In this document: one piece after another, positions 31,961 through 35,247 of the stretch
Position numbering within the stretch: position 1 is the stretch's first letter
Layout: each line of letters starts with the position of its first letter
Source: Escherichia coli
Lineage (GTDB): Bacteria > Pseudomonadota > Gammaproteobacteria > Enterobacterales > Enterobacteriaceae
Direction: 5' to 3' (one strand)
Assembly: GCF_003334815.1 (NCBI RefSeq)
Contig: NZ_QOWO01000011.1
Length of the DNA: 64,000 bases
The notes under the pieces: model-generated
Told to the model about the DNA's origin: nothing
Databases searched by the model: none
Seen by the model: the letters and a program-made list of their open reading frames with translations, nothing else
Made by a program: the position numbers and the translations under genes

Positions 31961-32740
31961 ATGGCATTTAAGATCTGGCAAATTGGTTTGCATTTACAAC
32001 AGCAAGAAGCGGTAGCGGTTGCGATCGTGCGGGGCGCAAAAGAATGCTTTTTGCAACGCTGGTGGCGGTTGCCGCTGGAGAACGACATTATCAAAGATGG
32101 GCGGATTGTTGATGCGCAGCAGCTGGCTAAAACGTTGTTACCGTGGAGTCGCGAACTGCCGCAGCGTCATCACATTATGTTGGCGTTTCCCGCCAGTCGC
32201 ACATTACAGCGGTCATTTCCGCGCCCGTCGATGTCCCTTGGTGAGCGGGAGCAAACGGCCTGGCTGTCAGGGACGATGGCCCGCGAGCTGGATATGGATC
32301 CGGACTCCCTGCGCTTCGATTACAGCGAAGACTCACTCAGTCCCGCCTATAACGTGACTGCCGCGCAAAGCAAAGAGCTGGCAACGCTGCTTACTCTGGC
32401 AGAAAGGTTGCGTGTTCATGTGAGCGCGATCACCCCGGATGCCAGTGCATTACAGCGATTCCTGCCTTTTTTACCTTCTCATCAGCAATGTCTGGCCTGG
32501 CGTGATAACGAACAGTGGCTGTGGGCGACGCGCTATAGCTGGGGGCGCAAACTGGCGGTGGGGATGACTAGCGCGAAGGAGCTGGCGGCAGCGTTATCCG
32601 TTGATCCCGAAAGCGTCGCGATATGTGGCGAAGGCGGATTTGATCCCTGGGAGGCCGTTTCTGTTCGTCAGCCGCCGCTACCGCCGCCAGGTGGAGACTT
32701 TGCCATCGCGCTGGGGCTGGCGCTTGGGAAGGCGTACTGA
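31961..32740 (+). CDS. hofM: DNA utilization protein HofM (PilM-like)
   Basis: Track ORF trimmed to ATG 31961 giving 259 aa MAFKIWQIGLHLQQQEAVAVAIV; stop overlaps hofN start. Confidence 0.88.
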   Translation: MAFKIWQIGLHLQQQEAVAVAIVRGAKECFLQRWWRLPLENDIIKDGRIVDAQQLAKTLLPWSRELPQRHHIMLAFPASRTLQRSFPRPSMSLGEREQTAWLSGTMARELDMDPDSLRFDYSEDSLSPAYNVTAAQSKELATLLTLAERLRVHVSAITPDASALQRFLPFLPSHQQCLAWRDNEQWLWATRYSWGRKLAVGMTSAKELAAALSVDPESVAICGEGGFDPWEAVSVRQPPLPPPGGDFAIALGLALGKAY

Positions 32741-33279
32741 TGAACCCGCCAATTAATTTTTTGCCCTGGCGACAGCAACGCCGGACCGCTTTTCTGCGTT
32801 TCTGGTTGCTGATGTTCGTTGCGCCTCTGCTGCTGGCCGTCGGGATAACGCTAATACTGCGTCTGACAGGCAGCGCCGAAGCGCGCATAGACGCAGTTTT
32901 GCTTCAGGCGGAACAACAACTCGCCCGCAGCTTACAGATAACGAAGCCACGTTTGCTGGAGCAACAGCAGTTACGCGAACAGCGTTCGCAACGGCAGCGC
33001 CAGCGACAATTTACCCGCGACTGGCAATCTGCGCTGGAAGCACTGGCGGCGCTTTTACCCGAGCACGCCTGGCTGACAACGATAAGCTGGCAGCAGGGAA
33101 CGCTGGAGATCAAGGGGCTGACAACAAGCATTACCGCGTTAAACGCACTAGAAACGTCACTCCGCCAGGATGCATCTTTTCATCTCAATCAGCGGGGAGC
33201 CACGCAGCAGGATGCGCAGGGACGCTGGCAATTTGAGTATCAGTTAACAAGGAAGGTTAGCGATGAACATGTTCTTTGA
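32740..33279 (+). CDS. hofN: DNA utilization protein HofN (PilN-like)
   Basis: 179-aa ORF MNPPINFLPWRQQRRTAFLRFWLLMFVAPLL. Confidence 0.88.
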   Translation: MNPPINFLPWRQQRRTAFLRFWLLMFVAPLLLAVGITLILRLTGSAEARIDAVLLQAEQQLARSLQITKPRLLEQQQLREQRSQRQRQRQFTRDWQSALEALAALLPEHAWLTTISWQQGTLEIKGLTTSITALNALETSLRQDASFHLNQRGATQQDAQGRWQFEYQLTRKVSDEHVL

Positions 33280-33703
33280 CTGGTGGTTCGCCACATCACC
33301 CCGCCTCCGCCAGCTTTGCTGGGCATTCTGGTTGCTGATGTTAGTTACGCTCATTTTTCTGTCATCGACACACCATGAAGAGCGCGACGCATTAATTCGA
33401 CTACGGGCAAGTCATCACCAGCAGTGGGCCGCACTGTATCGCCTGGTAGACACCACTCCCTTCAGCGAGGAAAAAACGCTGCCCTTTTCGCCACTGGATT
33501 TTCAGTTATCCGGCGCGCAACTGGTTTCCTGGCATCCATCCGCGCAGGGAGGCGAGTTGGCGTTGAAAACGCTGTGGGAAGCAGTGCCGTCGGCATTTAC
33601 ACGGCTGGCAGAGCGCAACGTCAGCGTGAGCCGTTTTTCGTTAAGCGTGGAAGGTGATGATCTTTTGTTCACGCTACAACTGGAGACGCCGCATGAGGGT
33701 TAA
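33263..33703 (+). CDS. hofO: DNA utilization protein HofO (PilO-like)
   Basis: 146-aa ORF MNMFFDWWFATSPRLRQLCWAFWLLMLVTLIF; overlaps hofN end by 17 nt. Confidence 0.85.
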   Translation: MNMFFDWWFATSPRLRQLCWAFWLLMLVTLIFLSSTHHEERDALIRLRASHHQQWAALYRLVDTTPFSEEKTLPFSPLDFQLSGAQLVSWHPSAQGGELALKTLWEAVPSAFTRLAERNVSVSRFSLSVEGDDLLFTLQLETPHEG

Positions 33704-34097
33704 ACGCTGGTTGTTGGCAGGTATTGCATTGTGCCTTTTAACCGGTATGCGTGACCCTTTTAAACCGCCGGAAGATCTATGCCGGATTAGCGAACTTAGC
33801 CAGTGGCGCTATCAGGGGATGGTAGGGCGAGGCGAGCGCATCATCGGTGTAATAAAAGACGGGCAAAAGAAATGGCGACGGGTGCAGCAAAACGATGTGC
33901 TGGAAAACGGCTGGACAATTTTACAGCTGACGCCAGACGTACTAACGCTGGGTACCGGGACAAACTGCGAACCGCCACAATGGTTGTGGCAACGGCAAGG
34001 AGATACAAATGAAGCAATGGATAGCCGCACTACTGTTGATGCTGATACCCGGCGTACAGGCGGCAAAGCCGCAAAAAGTGACGCTGATGGTGGATGA
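33693..34097 (+). CDS. hofP: DNA utilization protein HofP (PilP-like)
   Basis: Track ORF trimmed to ATG 33693 giving 134 aa MRVKRWLLAGIALCLLTGMRDPF; 3-prime end overlaps hofQ start by 89 nt in a different frame. Confidence 0.8.
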   Translation: MRVKRWLLAGIALCLLTGMRDPFKPPEDLCRISELSQWRYQGMVGRGERIIGVIKDGQKKWRRVQQNDVLENGWTILQLTPDVLTLGTGTNCEPPQWLWQRQGDTNEAMDSRTTVDADTRRTGGKAAKSDADGG

Positions 34098-35247
34098 CGT
34101 TCCGGTAGCTCAGGTGTTGCAGGCGCTGGCTGAACAGGAGAAGTTGAACCTGGTCGTGTCGCCAGACGTCAGCGGTACGGTGTCGTTACATCTAACAGAT
34201 GTTCCCTGGAAGCAGGCACTACAAACTGTAGTGAAAAGCGCCGGACTGATAACGCGGCAGGAAGGCAACATTCTCTCAGTGCATTCCATTGCCTGGCAGA
34301 ATAACAATATCGCCCGCCAGGAGGCGGAGCAGGCGCGGGCGCAGGCAAATCTGCCGCTGGAAAATCGCAGTATAACCCTGCAATACGCCGACGCGGGAGA
34401 ACTGGCGAAAGCGGGGGAGAAGCTACTGAGTGCCAAAGGGAGTATGACCGTCGATAAACGCACCAATCGCCTTTTGCTACGAGATAACAAAACGGCGTTA
34501 AGCGCGCTTGAACAGTGGGTAGCGCAAATGGATCTGCCGGTCGGGCAGGTTGAGCTGTCGGCGCATATTGTCACCATTAATGAAAAAAGTTTGCGTGAGT
34601 TAGGCGTGAAATGGACGCTGGCCGATGCGCAACACGCTGGTGGCGTTGGGCAAGTCACCACGCTTGGTAGCGACCTCTCCGTAGCGACGGCGACAACGCA
34701 TGTCGGTTTTAACATTGGGCGCATCAACGGACGCTTGCTGGATCTTGAGCTTTCCGCGCTCGAACAAAAACAGCAGCTGGATATTATCGCCAGTCCGCGT
34801 CTGCTGGCCTCACATCTTCAGCCTGCCAGCATTAAACAGGGGAGCGAAATTCCATATCAGGTTTCCAGCGGGGAAAGTGGCGCGACGTCGGTGGAATTTA
34901 AAGAGGCCGTCCTGGGGATGGAGGTCACGCCCACGGTGTTACAAAAAGGTCGCATCCGGCTGAAATTACACATCAGCCAGAACGTTCCGGGGCAGGTGCT
35001 ACAGCAGGCCGATGGCGAAGTGCTGGCGATTGATAAGCAGGAGATCGAAACGCAGGTCGAGGTCAAAAGCGGAGAAACGTTGGCGCTGGGCGGCATTTTT
35101 ACCCGTAAAAATAAATCGGGTCAGGATAGCGTACCGTTGCTTGGCGACATTCCCTGGTTCGGGCAATTATTTCGTCATGACGGAAAAGAAGATGAACGAC
35201 GCGAGTTAGTGGTGTTTATCACGCCACGACTGGTTTCCAGTGAGTAA
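34009..35247 (+). CDS. hofQ: Secretin HofQ (PilQ/ComE-like outer membrane channel)
   Basis: 412-aa ORF MKQWIAALLLMLIPGVQAAKPQKV (signal peptide), SD aaggagat upstream; secretin motifs GGIFTRK..VPLLGDIPWFGQLF. Confidence 0.92.
   Translation: MKQWIAALLLMLIPGVQAAKPQKVTLMVDDVPVAQVLQALAEQEKLNLVVSPDVSGTVSLHLTDVPWKQALQTVVKSAGLITRQEGNILSVHSIAWQNNNIARQEAEQARAQANLPLENRSITLQYADAGELAKAGEKLLSAKGSMTVDKRTNRLLLRDNKTALSALEQWVAQMDLPVGQVELSAHIVTINEKSLRELGVKWTLADAQHAGGVGQVTTLGSDLSVATATTHVGFNIGRINGRLLDLELSALEQKQQLDIIASPRLLASHLQPASIKQGSEIPYQVSSGESGATSVEFKEAVLGMEVTPTVLQKGRIRLKLHISQNVPGQVLQQADGEVLAIDKQEIETQVEVKSGETLALGGIFTRKNKSGQDSVPLLGDIPWFGQLFRHDGKEDERRELVVFITPRLVSSE

What the first reader, a model, noticed from the sequence alone, without database searches (positions are those of the whole stretch)
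31961..35247. Cryptic DNA-uptake/type IV pilus operon hofMNOPQ, with ComF-like gntX elsewhere in the window
Five consecutive overlapping genes encode PilM/N/O/P-like proteins and a secretin, divergent from mrcA. The ComF-like gntX lies at 9147-9830. These are remnants of a natural competence apparatus that is normally silent in E. coli. The 89-nt out-of-frame overlap of hofP with hofQ (34009-34097) is unusually long and suggests translational coupling or an over-extended hofP frame.
Basis: partly seen in the sequence, partly recalled or inferred. Interest (0 to 1): 0.3.

Follow-up and report, generated by a model that had tools for sequence, protein, structure and literature searches.

The report
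hofMNOPQ operon; translated hofP/hofQ overlap
This is the well-known, normally silent E. coli DNA-uptake operon hofMNOPQ; its odd 89-base hofP/hofQ overlap is real, arose when hofP lost its stop codon in an ancestor of Enterobacteriaceae and Erwiniaceae, and encodes a disordered tail that is not conserved in sequence but is kept free of cysteines and aromatic residues.

Summary
The window is E. coli chromosome, and RefSeq annotates hofM, hofN, hofO, hofP and hofQ at exactly the stated coordinates. The successive overlaps are 1, 17, 11 and 89 nt. gntX lies at 9147-9830, but on the minus strand.

The 89-nt overlap is not an annotation error. hofQ has an AAGGAG Shine-Dalgarno site and a conserved signal peptide. 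The hofP frame runs past the hofQ start in 77 of 79 Enterobacteriaceae species and in 7 of 7 more distant loci (three Erwiniaceae, four other Enterobacteriaceae or unnamed).

Yersinia, Brenneria, Lonsdalea and one unnamed outgroup have a spacer or a 1-4 nt overlap. The tail is therefore a lineage-specific 3' extension of hofP.

The overlap length follows from the HofQ protein sequence. Resampling synonymous codons gives a median of 89 nt.

The tail is predicted to be disordered, varies in sequence and charge, and is shortened or absent in some lineages. It still carries a selection signature. At hofQ fourfold third positions, T is 2% inside the overlap and 14% outside. Tail cysteines number 0, against about 95 expected.

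The tail is thus very probably translated and kept harmless. Coupling by termination-reinitiation is unlikely. The system is known, and this adds a modest new detail.

The parts
31961..32740 (+). hofM (yrfD), PilM-position gene and first gene of the operon
   Evidence: RefSeq CDS. SD AAGGAG lies upstream. Only weak PilM hits: TIGR01175 E = 0.004, PF11104 E = 0.047. Orthologues in related loci hit PF11104.
32740..33279 (+). hofN, PilN-like; overlaps hofM by 1 nt
   Evidence: RefSeq CDS. Pfam PilN PF05137, E = 3e-9.
33263..33703 (+). hofO, PilO-position gene; overlaps hofN by 17 nt
   Evidence: RefSeq CDS. Pfam PF25319 HofO EspM-like domain, E = 2e-25.
33693..34097 (+). hofP (134 aa). Signal peptide, then a PilP/GspC-type HR domain (about residues 30-103, with invariant Cys30 and Cys92), then a disordered tail.
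34009..34097 (+). The 89-nt dual-coding overlap. In the hofP frame it encodes the last 28 residues and the stop of the tail (EAMDSRTTVDADTRRTGGKAAKSDADGG*). In the hofQ frame it encodes the signal peptide and the first residues of mature HofQ.
   Evidence: Sequence. Tail pLDDT is below 50. Open frame in 77 of 79 species. T at hofQ fourfold third positions is 2% inside versus 14% outside; Cys 0/2081.
33997..34002 (+). hofQ Shine-Dalgarno AAGGAG, 6 nt before the ATG, embedded in hofP codons Gln-Gly-Asp
   Evidence: Sequence. GGAG/GAAGGA-type motifs sit at the same place in the relatives.
34095..34097 (+). hofP stop codon TGA, formed across hofQ Asp29-Asp30 (GAT GAC) of the conserved LxVDDVP motif
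34009..35247 (+). hofQ, PilQ-type outer-membrane secretin (412 aa; signal peptide MKQWIAALLLMLIPGVQA)
   Evidence: NF007851 HofQ E = 7e-258, above cut-off, covering residues 1-412. TIGR02515 PilQ E = 1e-134.
31693..31714 (+). Candidate distal CRP-S site (ATCTGCATCGGAATTTGCAGGC), inside the mrcA 5' coding sequence
   Evidence: 7/10 core matches. It lies at one end of the yrfD EMSA fragment of Cameron & Redfield 2006. The assignment is inferred, not shown.
31774..31795 (+). Candidate proximal CRP-S site, at the other end of the published EMSA fragment
   Evidence: 7/10 core matches. Primer yrfDR maps to 31789-31810. Inferred.
29289..31841 (-). mrcA (PBP1a), divergently transcribed neighbour
   Evidence: RefSeq CDS and ORF list.
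9147..9830 (-). gntX (ComF-like), a separate transcription unit on the minus strand
   Evidence: ORF. NF008616 E = 4e-130 and TIGR00201 ComF E = 2e-82, both above cut-off.

Best explanation
hofMNOPQ is the intact, Sxy/CRP-S-inducible type IV pilus and DNA-uptake operon of E. coli. It encodes PilM/N/O/P-position inner-membrane and periplasmic proteins plus the PilQ-type secretin.

The 89-nt hofP/hofQ overlap is a real dual-coding stretch. It arose when hofP lost its own stop or spacer in a common ancestor of Enterobacteriaceae and Erwiniaceae. Ribosomes translating hofP now read on through the hofQ ribosome-binding site, start codon and signal-peptide codons, one base out of frame. They stop at the first stop the HofQ protein sequence allows, a TGA formed by the conserved Asp-Asp (GAT GAY) of the secretin N0 domain. 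The overlap length is therefore a by-product of the HofQ sequence.

The resulting tail of about 28 residues, appended to the PilP-like HR domain, is disordered and has no conserved sequence, charge or length. Because it is made and exported to the periplasm on a protein with one conserved Cys pair, selection keeps it harmless: no cysteines, very few aromatic or hydrophobic residues, no early loss of solubility. That selection constrains synonymous sites of the hofQ signal-peptide region.

hofQ is most probably initiated independently from its own strong SD.

Shown here: the coordinates, the conservation, the outgroup state, the null model for length, the compositional selection, and the predicted fold and disorder. 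Inferred: actual translation of the tail, the reason for cysteine avoidance, and independent initiation of hofQ.
For: - **Identity and annotation:**
- **Regulation and function from the literature:** PMC1635313 and PMC3330819.
- **hofQ start:** an SD, a canonical signal peptide conserved in every species, and a full-length match to NF007851. The only downstream ATG that would shrink the overlap (Met27) is Val, Thr or Leu in most species.
- **Conservation:** overlap of 77-98 nt in 67 of 79 Enterobacteriaceae species, and exactly 89 nt in 38. The same phase with 62-98 nt overlaps is found in Pantoea, Izhakiella, Cedecea, Atlantibacter and Tenebrionibacter.
- **Derived state:** Yersinia +44 nt, Brenneria +104 nt, Lonsdalea -1/-4 nt, and one unnamed locus +38 nt.
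- **Length is a by-product:** resampling synonymous codons gives a median of 89 nt and P(exactly 89) = 0.51 for the window.
- **T depletion:** T at hofQ fourfold third positions is 17/837 (2%) inside versus 652/4658 (14%) outside, with a step exactly at the hofP stop.
- **Dependence on the hofP-frame consequence:** would-be Cys 0/350 versus 11%; Phe 3.6% versus 23%; Tyr 2.8% versus 16%; Ser 7.5% versus 14%; Leu 6% versus 9%.
- **Parsimony on a tree:** 0 of 44 substitutions go to T in Cys contexts inside, versus 79 of 262 outside (p = 9e-7).
- **Tail composition against the null:** Cys 0 versus 94.7 expected, Tyr 6 versus 48, Phe 8 versus 32.
- **Controls:** hofP's own signal peptide has 16% T. 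Species whose hofP stops early have 11% T between their stop and codon 28. Outgroups without an overlap have 39% T in hofQ codons 2-28. The same frame downstream of the stop has 4.0% Cys and 4.9% stops.
- **HofP cysteines:** exactly two are invariant.
Against: - There is no direct evidence of translation. The operon is silent in standard conditions, and no Ribo-seq or proteomics could be consulted here.
- Species are phylogenetically related. The parsimony test addresses this only approximately, and the aromatic and Ser/Leu depletions are only marginally significant there (p about 0.03-0.05).
- In the seven more distant overlap-bearing loci only the Cys avoidance replicates (0/21 versus 19/107). 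Tyr is not depleted.
- Lys is enriched 3-fold and Glu is depleted. This could reflect a positive function, or the usual A-richness of gene 5' ends, rather than mere harmlessness.
- Persistence of the stop-less junction across two families, when an ATGA junction is attainable (L049, L051), is not explained by 'by-product' alone.
Confidence: 0.72

Rival explanations
1. The tail is a functional disordered extension of HofP, for example a flexible linker or contact to HofQ, peptidoglycan or DNA. On this view the overlap is maintained because the tail is needed.
For: - The open frame has been retained in 77 of 79 Enterobacteriaceae species and in three Erwiniaceae loci.
- The compositional selection is IDR-like: Lys 3.2x, Ala, Gly and Asn up; Cys, Phe, Tyr, Trp and Leu down.
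- Observed overlaps are slightly longer than the neutral expectation (mean mid-rank 0.42 rather than 0.5).
Against: - There is no sequence conservation beyond what HofQ codons impose.
- Net charge ranges from -5 to +5.
- The tail is absent in two species (ATGA junction: L049, L051) and cut to 12-20 residues in eight others.
- Outgroup orthologues lack it altogether.
- It is predicted to be disordered, with pLDDT below 50.
Confidence: 0.15
2. The overlap is a regulatory device. hofP-translating ribosomes crossing the hofQ initiation site either couple or throttle hofQ translation to set the HofP:HofQ ratio. The tail is only the price paid for this.
For: - All four junctions in the operon overlap.
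- The hofQ SD and ATG lie inside hofP coding sequence in a phase conserved in every overlap-bearing locus.
Against: - hofQ has its own consensus SD with 6-nt spacing.
- The SD and start are unpaired in the predicted fold, and the region folds no better than shuffles (z = -0.8 and +0.8).
- Termination-reinitiation is abolished by about 20 nt of separation in E. coli (PMC10666635), and here the stop is 89 nt past the start.
- Outgroups manage with spacers of 38-104 nt.
Confidence: 0.1
3. The overlap is an annotation or sequencing artefact, caused by a wrong hofQ start or a frameshifted hofP 3' end. This is how Palleja et al. 2008 classified every co-directional overlap longer than 60 bp.
For: - Palleja et al. 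found no genuine co-directional overlap above 60 bp in 338 genomes (PMC2478687).
- The tail is longer than in Yersinia or Brenneria orthologues, which matches their category iii.
Against: - The sequence is identical or near-identical in 5426 complete genomes.
- The hofQ start is fixed by the SD, the signal peptide and the full-length family model.
- A secretin starting at Met27 would lack a signal peptide, and that codon is not a start codon in most species.
- The hofP-frame codon composition inside the overlap differs sharply from the same frame downstream and from the third frame: 0% versus 4.0% and 10.4% Cys, and 0% versus 4.9% and 14% stops.
Confidence: 0.02

Closest known systems
Type IVa pilus PilMNOPQ alignment subcomplex and secretin (Pseudomonas, Neisseria, Myxococcus) and the orthologous competence operon comABCDE of Haemophilus influenzae
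   Same: - Five-gene order M-N-O-P-Q.
- A PilQ-type secretin (TIGR02515, E = 1e-134).
- A PilN domain in HofN.
- CRP-S/Sxy control and a role in DNA uptake, according to PMC1635313 and PMC3330819.
   Different: - HofM, HofO and HofP are too diverged for the PilM/O/P sequence models.
- HofP has no conserved lipobox, whereas PilP is a lipoprotein.
- HofP carries a tail of about 28 residues encoded inside hofQ.
- Typical PilP-to-secretin spacing is about +13 nt, not -89.
GspC HR domain bound to GspD N0 (type II secretion; PDB 3OSS)
   Different: GspC continues into a PDZ or coiled-coil domain. HofP continues into a disordered out-of-frame read-through of the secretin's own signal-peptide codons.
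holD/rimI, described as the longest genuine co-directional overlap by Palleja et al. 2008 (PMC2478687)
   Same: A same-strand overlap conserved among Enterobacteria, with both genes real.
   Different: holD/rimI overlaps by about 32 bp or somewhat more and is conserved in sequence. hofP/hofQ overlaps by 89 nt, exceeds their 60-bp 'rule', and is conserved in frame and composition but not in sequence.
3'-extension overlaps created by stop-codon loss (model of Fonseca et al. 2013, PMC3887535; category iii of Palleja et al.)
   Same: The upstream gene reads on to the next in-frame stop inside the downstream gene. The length is set by chance or by the composition of the downstream gene.
   Different: Here the extension is old (shared by two families). 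It also shows purifying selection on composition, so it is not a transient or erroneous extension.

Membership tests
PilQ-type secretin (HofQ) | Secretin C-domain plus N-terminal secretin/N0 domains, scoring above the curated family threshold | tested here: met
   NF007851 scores 855 bits against a cut-off of 598, covering residues 1-412. TIGR02515 scores 449 against 284. Orthologues carry PF03958 and PF00263.
PilQ-type secretin (HofQ) | Cleavable N-terminal signal peptide for export | tested here: met
   The N-terminus is MKQWIAALLLMLIPGVQA|AKP. The n/h/c-region pattern is conserved in 79 species. No dedicated predictor was run.
PilP (HofP) | C-terminal beta-sandwich HR domain of the PilP/GspC type | tested here: met
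PilP (HofP) | Lipoprotein signal peptide with a lipobox Cys | tested here: not met
   The consensus is ...LLTGMRDPF. The E. coli Cys13 is not conserved, and the only invariant Cys residues are 30 and 92.
PilP (HofP) | Match to PilP sequence models | tested here: not met
   The only Pfam hit is PF10748 HofP. There is no NCBIfam hit.
PilN (HofN) | PilN domain | tested here: met
   PF05137, E = 3e-9.
PilO (HofO) | PilO domain | tested here: inconclusive
   Only PF25319 'HofO EspM-like' is found. Gene position and size fit PilO. No structure comparison was run.
PilM (HofM) | Actin-like PilM ATPase-fold domain | tested here: inconclusive
   TIGR01175 gives E = 0.004 (16 bits against a cut-off of 133) and PF11104 gives E = 0.047. 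Orthologues in Pantoea, Izhakiella, Yersinia and Brenneria do hit PF11104.
CRP-S / Sxy competence regulon | CRP-S site(s) (TGCGA-N6-TCGCA type) upstream, with Sxy- and CRP-dependent induction | tested here: inconclusive
   No site with 2 or fewer core mismatches lies near hofM. Two 7/10 matches at 31693-31714 and 31774-31795 coincide with the ends of the published EMSA fragment. Induction is shown only in the literature (PMC1635313).
ComF family (GntX) | Match above the curated threshold to ComF/GntX models | tested here: met
   NF008616 scores 432 bits against 304. TIGR00201 scores 276 against 234.
Genuine long same-strand overlapping gene pair | Both reading frames are real genes with a verified downstream start | tested here: met
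Genuine long same-strand overlapping gene pair | Overlap conserved across taxa | tested here: met
   77 of 79 Enterobacteriaceae species and 7 of 7 distant loci, all in the same phase.
Genuine long same-strand overlapping gene pair | Selection detectable in both frames | tested here: met
   In the hofQ frame the signal peptide is conserved. In the hofP frame, Cys, aromatic residues and stops are excluded, with controls. The signature is compositional only; there is no sequence conservation.
Genuine long same-strand overlapping gene pair | Both products translated in vivo | not testable with these tools
   Needs Ribo-seq or mass spectrometry under sxy induction.

The most novel reading that the evidence does not exclude
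The HofP tail and the overlap are maintained for a positive reason. One possibility is a disordered, Lys/Ala/Gly-rich extension that contacts HofQ or the cell wall. Another is ribosome traffic across the hofQ start that tunes secretin output. Either would make hofP/hofQ a functional dual-coding region and the longest genuine same-strand overlap in E. coli, contrary to the 'no real co-directional overlap above 60 bp' rule.
Probability: 0.2. Interest if true: 0.5.

Novelty: already known. Interest (0 to 1): 0.3.

Why it matters
The operon and its -89 nt junction are already annotated and tabulated, so there is no new system here. The analysis adds three small points.

1. It gives a clean, conserved counter-example to the widely used rule that same-strand overlaps above 60 bp are annotation errors. 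Prodigal-type gene callers forbid such overlaps and will mis-call hofQ or hofP starts. Several mis-called starts were seen in the public gene calls.

2. It shows how an accidental 3' extension can persist. Its length is dictated by the downstream protein, while its composition is policed by selection: no Cys and few aromatic residues.

3. It shows that synonymous sites of the hofQ signal peptide are not neutral in these species. This matters for codon-based evolutionary analyses and for recoding or synthetic-genome designs at this locus.

Tried and rejected
- **Selection on the stop codon.** I tested whether the hofP stop (the T of hofQ Asp29 GAT) is itself under selection. GAT is present in 73 of 79 species, but also in 9 of 10 species whose hofP stops earlier, and the Asp baseline is 67% GAT. 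Rejected.
- **A conserved basic tail, as for DNA binding.** Net charge ranges from -5 to +5, with a mean of +0.6. Rejected.
- **Signal-peptide codon bias as the cause of T depletion.** hofP's own signal peptide has 16% T and the outgroup hofQ signal peptides have 39% T. Rejected.
- **An RNA structure sequestering the hofQ SD, as a basis for coupling.** Not found. Rfam gave no hit in 28000-38000.
- **Strict CRP-S pattern search.** There is nothing in the mrcA-hofM spacer, and matches window-wide are below chance. Only 7/10 half-site matches were found.
- **NCBIfam.** No hits for HofN, HofO or HofP.
- **The Palleja 2008 supplement.** It holds no entry for hofP/hofQ, so their classification of this pair is unknown.
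- **The promoter and terminator scan of the operon.** At chance level.
- **The first family search.** It failed because gntX had been given on the wrong strand.
- **Relatives outside Enterobacterales (Vibrio pilPQ, Haemophilus comDE).** Not examined.

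
Full report
**1. Observation**

The 4.1-kb region matches all 5426 complete E. coli genomes at 95% identity or more. RefSeq annotates hofM 31961-32740, hofN 32740-33279, hofO 33263-33703, hofP 33693-34097 and hofQ 34009-35247 in window coordinates. mrcA is divergent, and aroK and aroB lie downstream.

The junctions overlap by 1, 17, 11 and 89 nt. The same values are tabulated for K-12 by Huber et al. 2023 (PMC10666635 supplement).

gntX is at 9147-9830 on the minus strand.

The hofP TGA (34095-34097) is formed across hofQ Asp29-Asp30 (GAT GAC). The hofQ ATG is preceded by AAGGAG with a 6-nt spacer and is followed by a canonical signal peptide.

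**2. What the genes are**

- HofQ is an unambiguous PilQ-type secretin, and GntX an unambiguous ComF-family protein.
- HofN has a PilN domain.
- HofO and HofP have their own Pfam families.
- HofM gives only sub-threshold PilM hits, although orthologues in other genera hit PilM_2.

HofP lacks a conserved lipobox. It has exactly two invariant cysteines, C30 and C92.

Published work shows the following:
- The yrfD(hofM)-hofQ operon is barely transcribed without Sxy.
- It is induced 16-fold by Sxy in a CRP- and cAMP-dependent way (PMC1635313).
- hofQ is required for Sxy-induced natural DNA uptake (PMC3330819).

The two weak CRP-S-like matches I found (31693-31714 and 31774-31795) sit at the two ends of that paper's EMSA fragment, inside mrcA coding sequence.

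**3. Is the overlap conserved?**

I fetched 80 Enterobacteriaceae loci with HofQ, and 79 junctions could be scored. I located the hofP stop and the hofQ start in each.

- The hofP frame runs past the hofQ start in 77 of 79 species.
- The overlap is 89 nt in 38 species and 77-98 nt in 67.
- The exceptions are 38 nt (Phytobacter, Kosakonia), 59-62 nt (Raoultella, Pseudocitrobacter and others), 122-140 nt (Kluyvera and one Enterobacter), and an ATGA junction in two species (a Leclercia MAG and another MAG).

Seven more distant loci with the same mrcA | hofMNOPQ | aroKB synteny also overlap by 62-98 nt in the same phase. They come from Pantoea (two species), Izhakiella, Cedecea, Atlantibacter, Tenebrionibacter and one unnamed source.

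In contrast, four outgroup loci show no long overlap:

| Locus | Junction |
|---|---|
| Yersinia | +44 nt spacer |
| Brenneria | +104 nt spacer |
| Lonsdalea | -1/-4 nt |
| One unnamed locus | +38 nt spacer |

In these, in-frame stops upstream of the hofQ ATG exclude longer forms. Their HofP ends 12-20 residues after the second conserved Cys, which is where the E. coli fold ends.

The tail is thus a derived 3' extension shared by Enterobacteriaceae and Erwiniaceae. Across 281 genomes the PilP-to-secretin spacing has a median of +13 nt.

**4. Why 89 nt?**

I held each species' HofQ protein fixed and resampled synonymous codons from that gene's own usage. The hofP frame then stays open to the observed stop with a median probability of 0.58. 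For the window the probability is 0.77, the frame stops exactly at 89 nt in 51% of trials, and the simulated median is 89.

Signal-peptide codons rarely allow a stop in that frame. The conserved LxVDD motif then supplies xxT GAx. The length, and its apparent conservation, is therefore a by-product of HofQ.

The recurrent tail ending ...AGGG* is simply LVVDD read one base early.

**5. Is the tail under selection?**

Not for sequence:
- It is unalignable between genera.
- Its net charge ranges from -5 to +5.
- It is predicted to be disordered (pLDDT below 50 for residues 110-134).
- It is dispensable in several lineages.

Its composition, however, is strongly constrained. T at fourfold-degenerate third positions of hofQ, which is codon position 1 in hofP, falls from 14% outside the overlap to 2% inside. 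The profile along the gene runs 0.00, 0.03, 0.02 and then 0.24 exactly at the hofP stop.

The depletion tracks what a T would encode in hofP:

| hofP-frame consequence of T | T inside overlap | T outside |
|---|---|---|
| Cys | 0/350 | 11% |
| Phe | 3.6% | 23% |
| Tyr | 2.8% | 16% |
| Trp | 4.7% | 13% |
| Ser | 7.5% | 14% |
| Leu | 6% | 9% |

Counting substitutions by parsimony on a tree built from downstream codons gives 0 of 44 changes to T in Cys contexts inside, against 79 of 262 outside (p = 9e-7). The aromatic and Ser/Leu classes are marginal (p about 0.03-0.05).

I also compared the tails with a null that fixes HofQ and conditions on the absence of stops. The 2081 tail codons contain 0 Cys (94.7 expected), 6 Tyr (48), 8 Phe (32) and 26 Leu (63). 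Lys is 3.2-fold enriched.

Controls:
- hofP's own signal peptide has 16% T.
- Species whose hofP stops early have 11% T between that stop and codon 28.
- Non-overlapping outgroups have 39% T in hofQ codons 2-28.
- The same frame downstream of the stop has 4.0% Cys and 4.9% stops, and the third frame inside the overlap has 10% Cys and 14% stops.
- In the seven distant loci only the Cys avoidance replicates (0/21 versus 19/107).

I conclude that the tail is, or has long been, translated and exposed to selection. The most plausible reason for the absolute Cys exclusion is interference with the single C30-C92 pair of a periplasmic protein. That reason is an inference.

**6. Mechanism and rivals**

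- **Termination-reinitiation coupling** is unlikely. It collapses with about 20 nt of separation in E. coli (PMC10666635), and here the stop is 89 nt beyond the start. hofQ has its own consensus SD. The region has no above-chance RNA structure, and the SD and ATG are unpaired.
- **A regulatory effect of hofP ribosomes** crossing the hofQ start cannot be excluded.
- **A positively functional tail** is possible but is disfavoured by its variability and repeated loss.
- **An annotation artefact** is excluded.

**7. Relation to the literature**

Palleja et al. 2008 reported no genuine co-directional overlap above 60 bp in 338 genomes, and named holD/rimI as the longest real one (PMC2478687). hofP/hofQ does not appear in their supplement.

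The hofP/hofQ pair is a conserved exception to their rule. It arose by their 'category iii' route, a 3' extension of the upstream gene.

I found no paper in the held library that discusses this junction. Only two papers mention both gene names.

**8. Verdict**

This is an already known system, correctly spotted. The overlap is real and old, and its length is explained by HofQ. Its product is a disordered appendage under 'keep it harmless' selection.

Interest is modest. It lies in the counter-example to the 60-bp rule and in the demonstrable constraint on hofQ synonymous sites.

Noticed in passing
L004:3185-3589 (Escherichia albertii NBRC 107761): hofP carries an in-frame stop at codon 34 (RIS*LTQ), so it looks like a pseudogene in this type strain. 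hofQ is intact at 97% identity.
   Followed up: no
L039 (Citrobacter koseri NCTC10786), about 3501-3620: The HofQ match begins only at residue 38 (best segment from residue 76), and no start codon lies in frame upstream. hofQ may be disrupted at its 5' end in this strain.
   Followed up: no
L092:2501-4036 (metagenome contig); P0137 and P0227 (BDH44283.1): A single 511-aa ORF fuses the HofP HR domain in frame to HofQ, with no internal signal peptide. The same protein occurs on a 4.26-Mb contig labelled Salmonella enterica, so it is probably not an assembly error. The sequence is far from Salmonella HofP, so the label looks doubtful.
   Followed up: partly
window 33693-33760 (HofP N-terminus) and alignment A2: HofP has no conserved lipobox. 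The consensus is LLTGMRDPF, and the E. coli Cys13 is not conserved, although PilP proteins are lipoproteins. How HofP is anchored is unclear.
   Followed up: partly
window 31693-31714 and 31774-31795: Both candidate CRP-S sites of the hofM promoter lie inside the mrcA 5' coding sequence. They match the TGCGA-N6-TCGCA core at only 7 of 10 positions. No better site exists in the 119-nt mrcA-hofM spacer.
   Followed up: partly
L085:2347, L084:2835, L087:1480 (public gene calls): Automatic gene callers placed hofQ starts downstream of the SD-supported ATG, once at a TTG inside the signal peptide. This is probably because they cap same-strand overlaps at about 60 nt. It is a systematic mis-annotation risk for this junction.
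   Followed up: partly
L093-L096, hofQ codons 2-28: In outgroups without the overlap, the hofQ signal-peptide region is unusually T-rich at fourfold sites (39% versus 19% in the rest of the gene). This is the opposite of the overlap-bearing species.
   Followed up: no
window 35248-35647: A 400-nt hofQ-aroK spacer holds two terminator-like hairpins (35251-35264 and 35388-35406) and a good sigma-70-like promoter match (35509-35538, 10/12 with an extended -10 TG), presumably for aroK. There is no Rfam hit.
   Followed up: no
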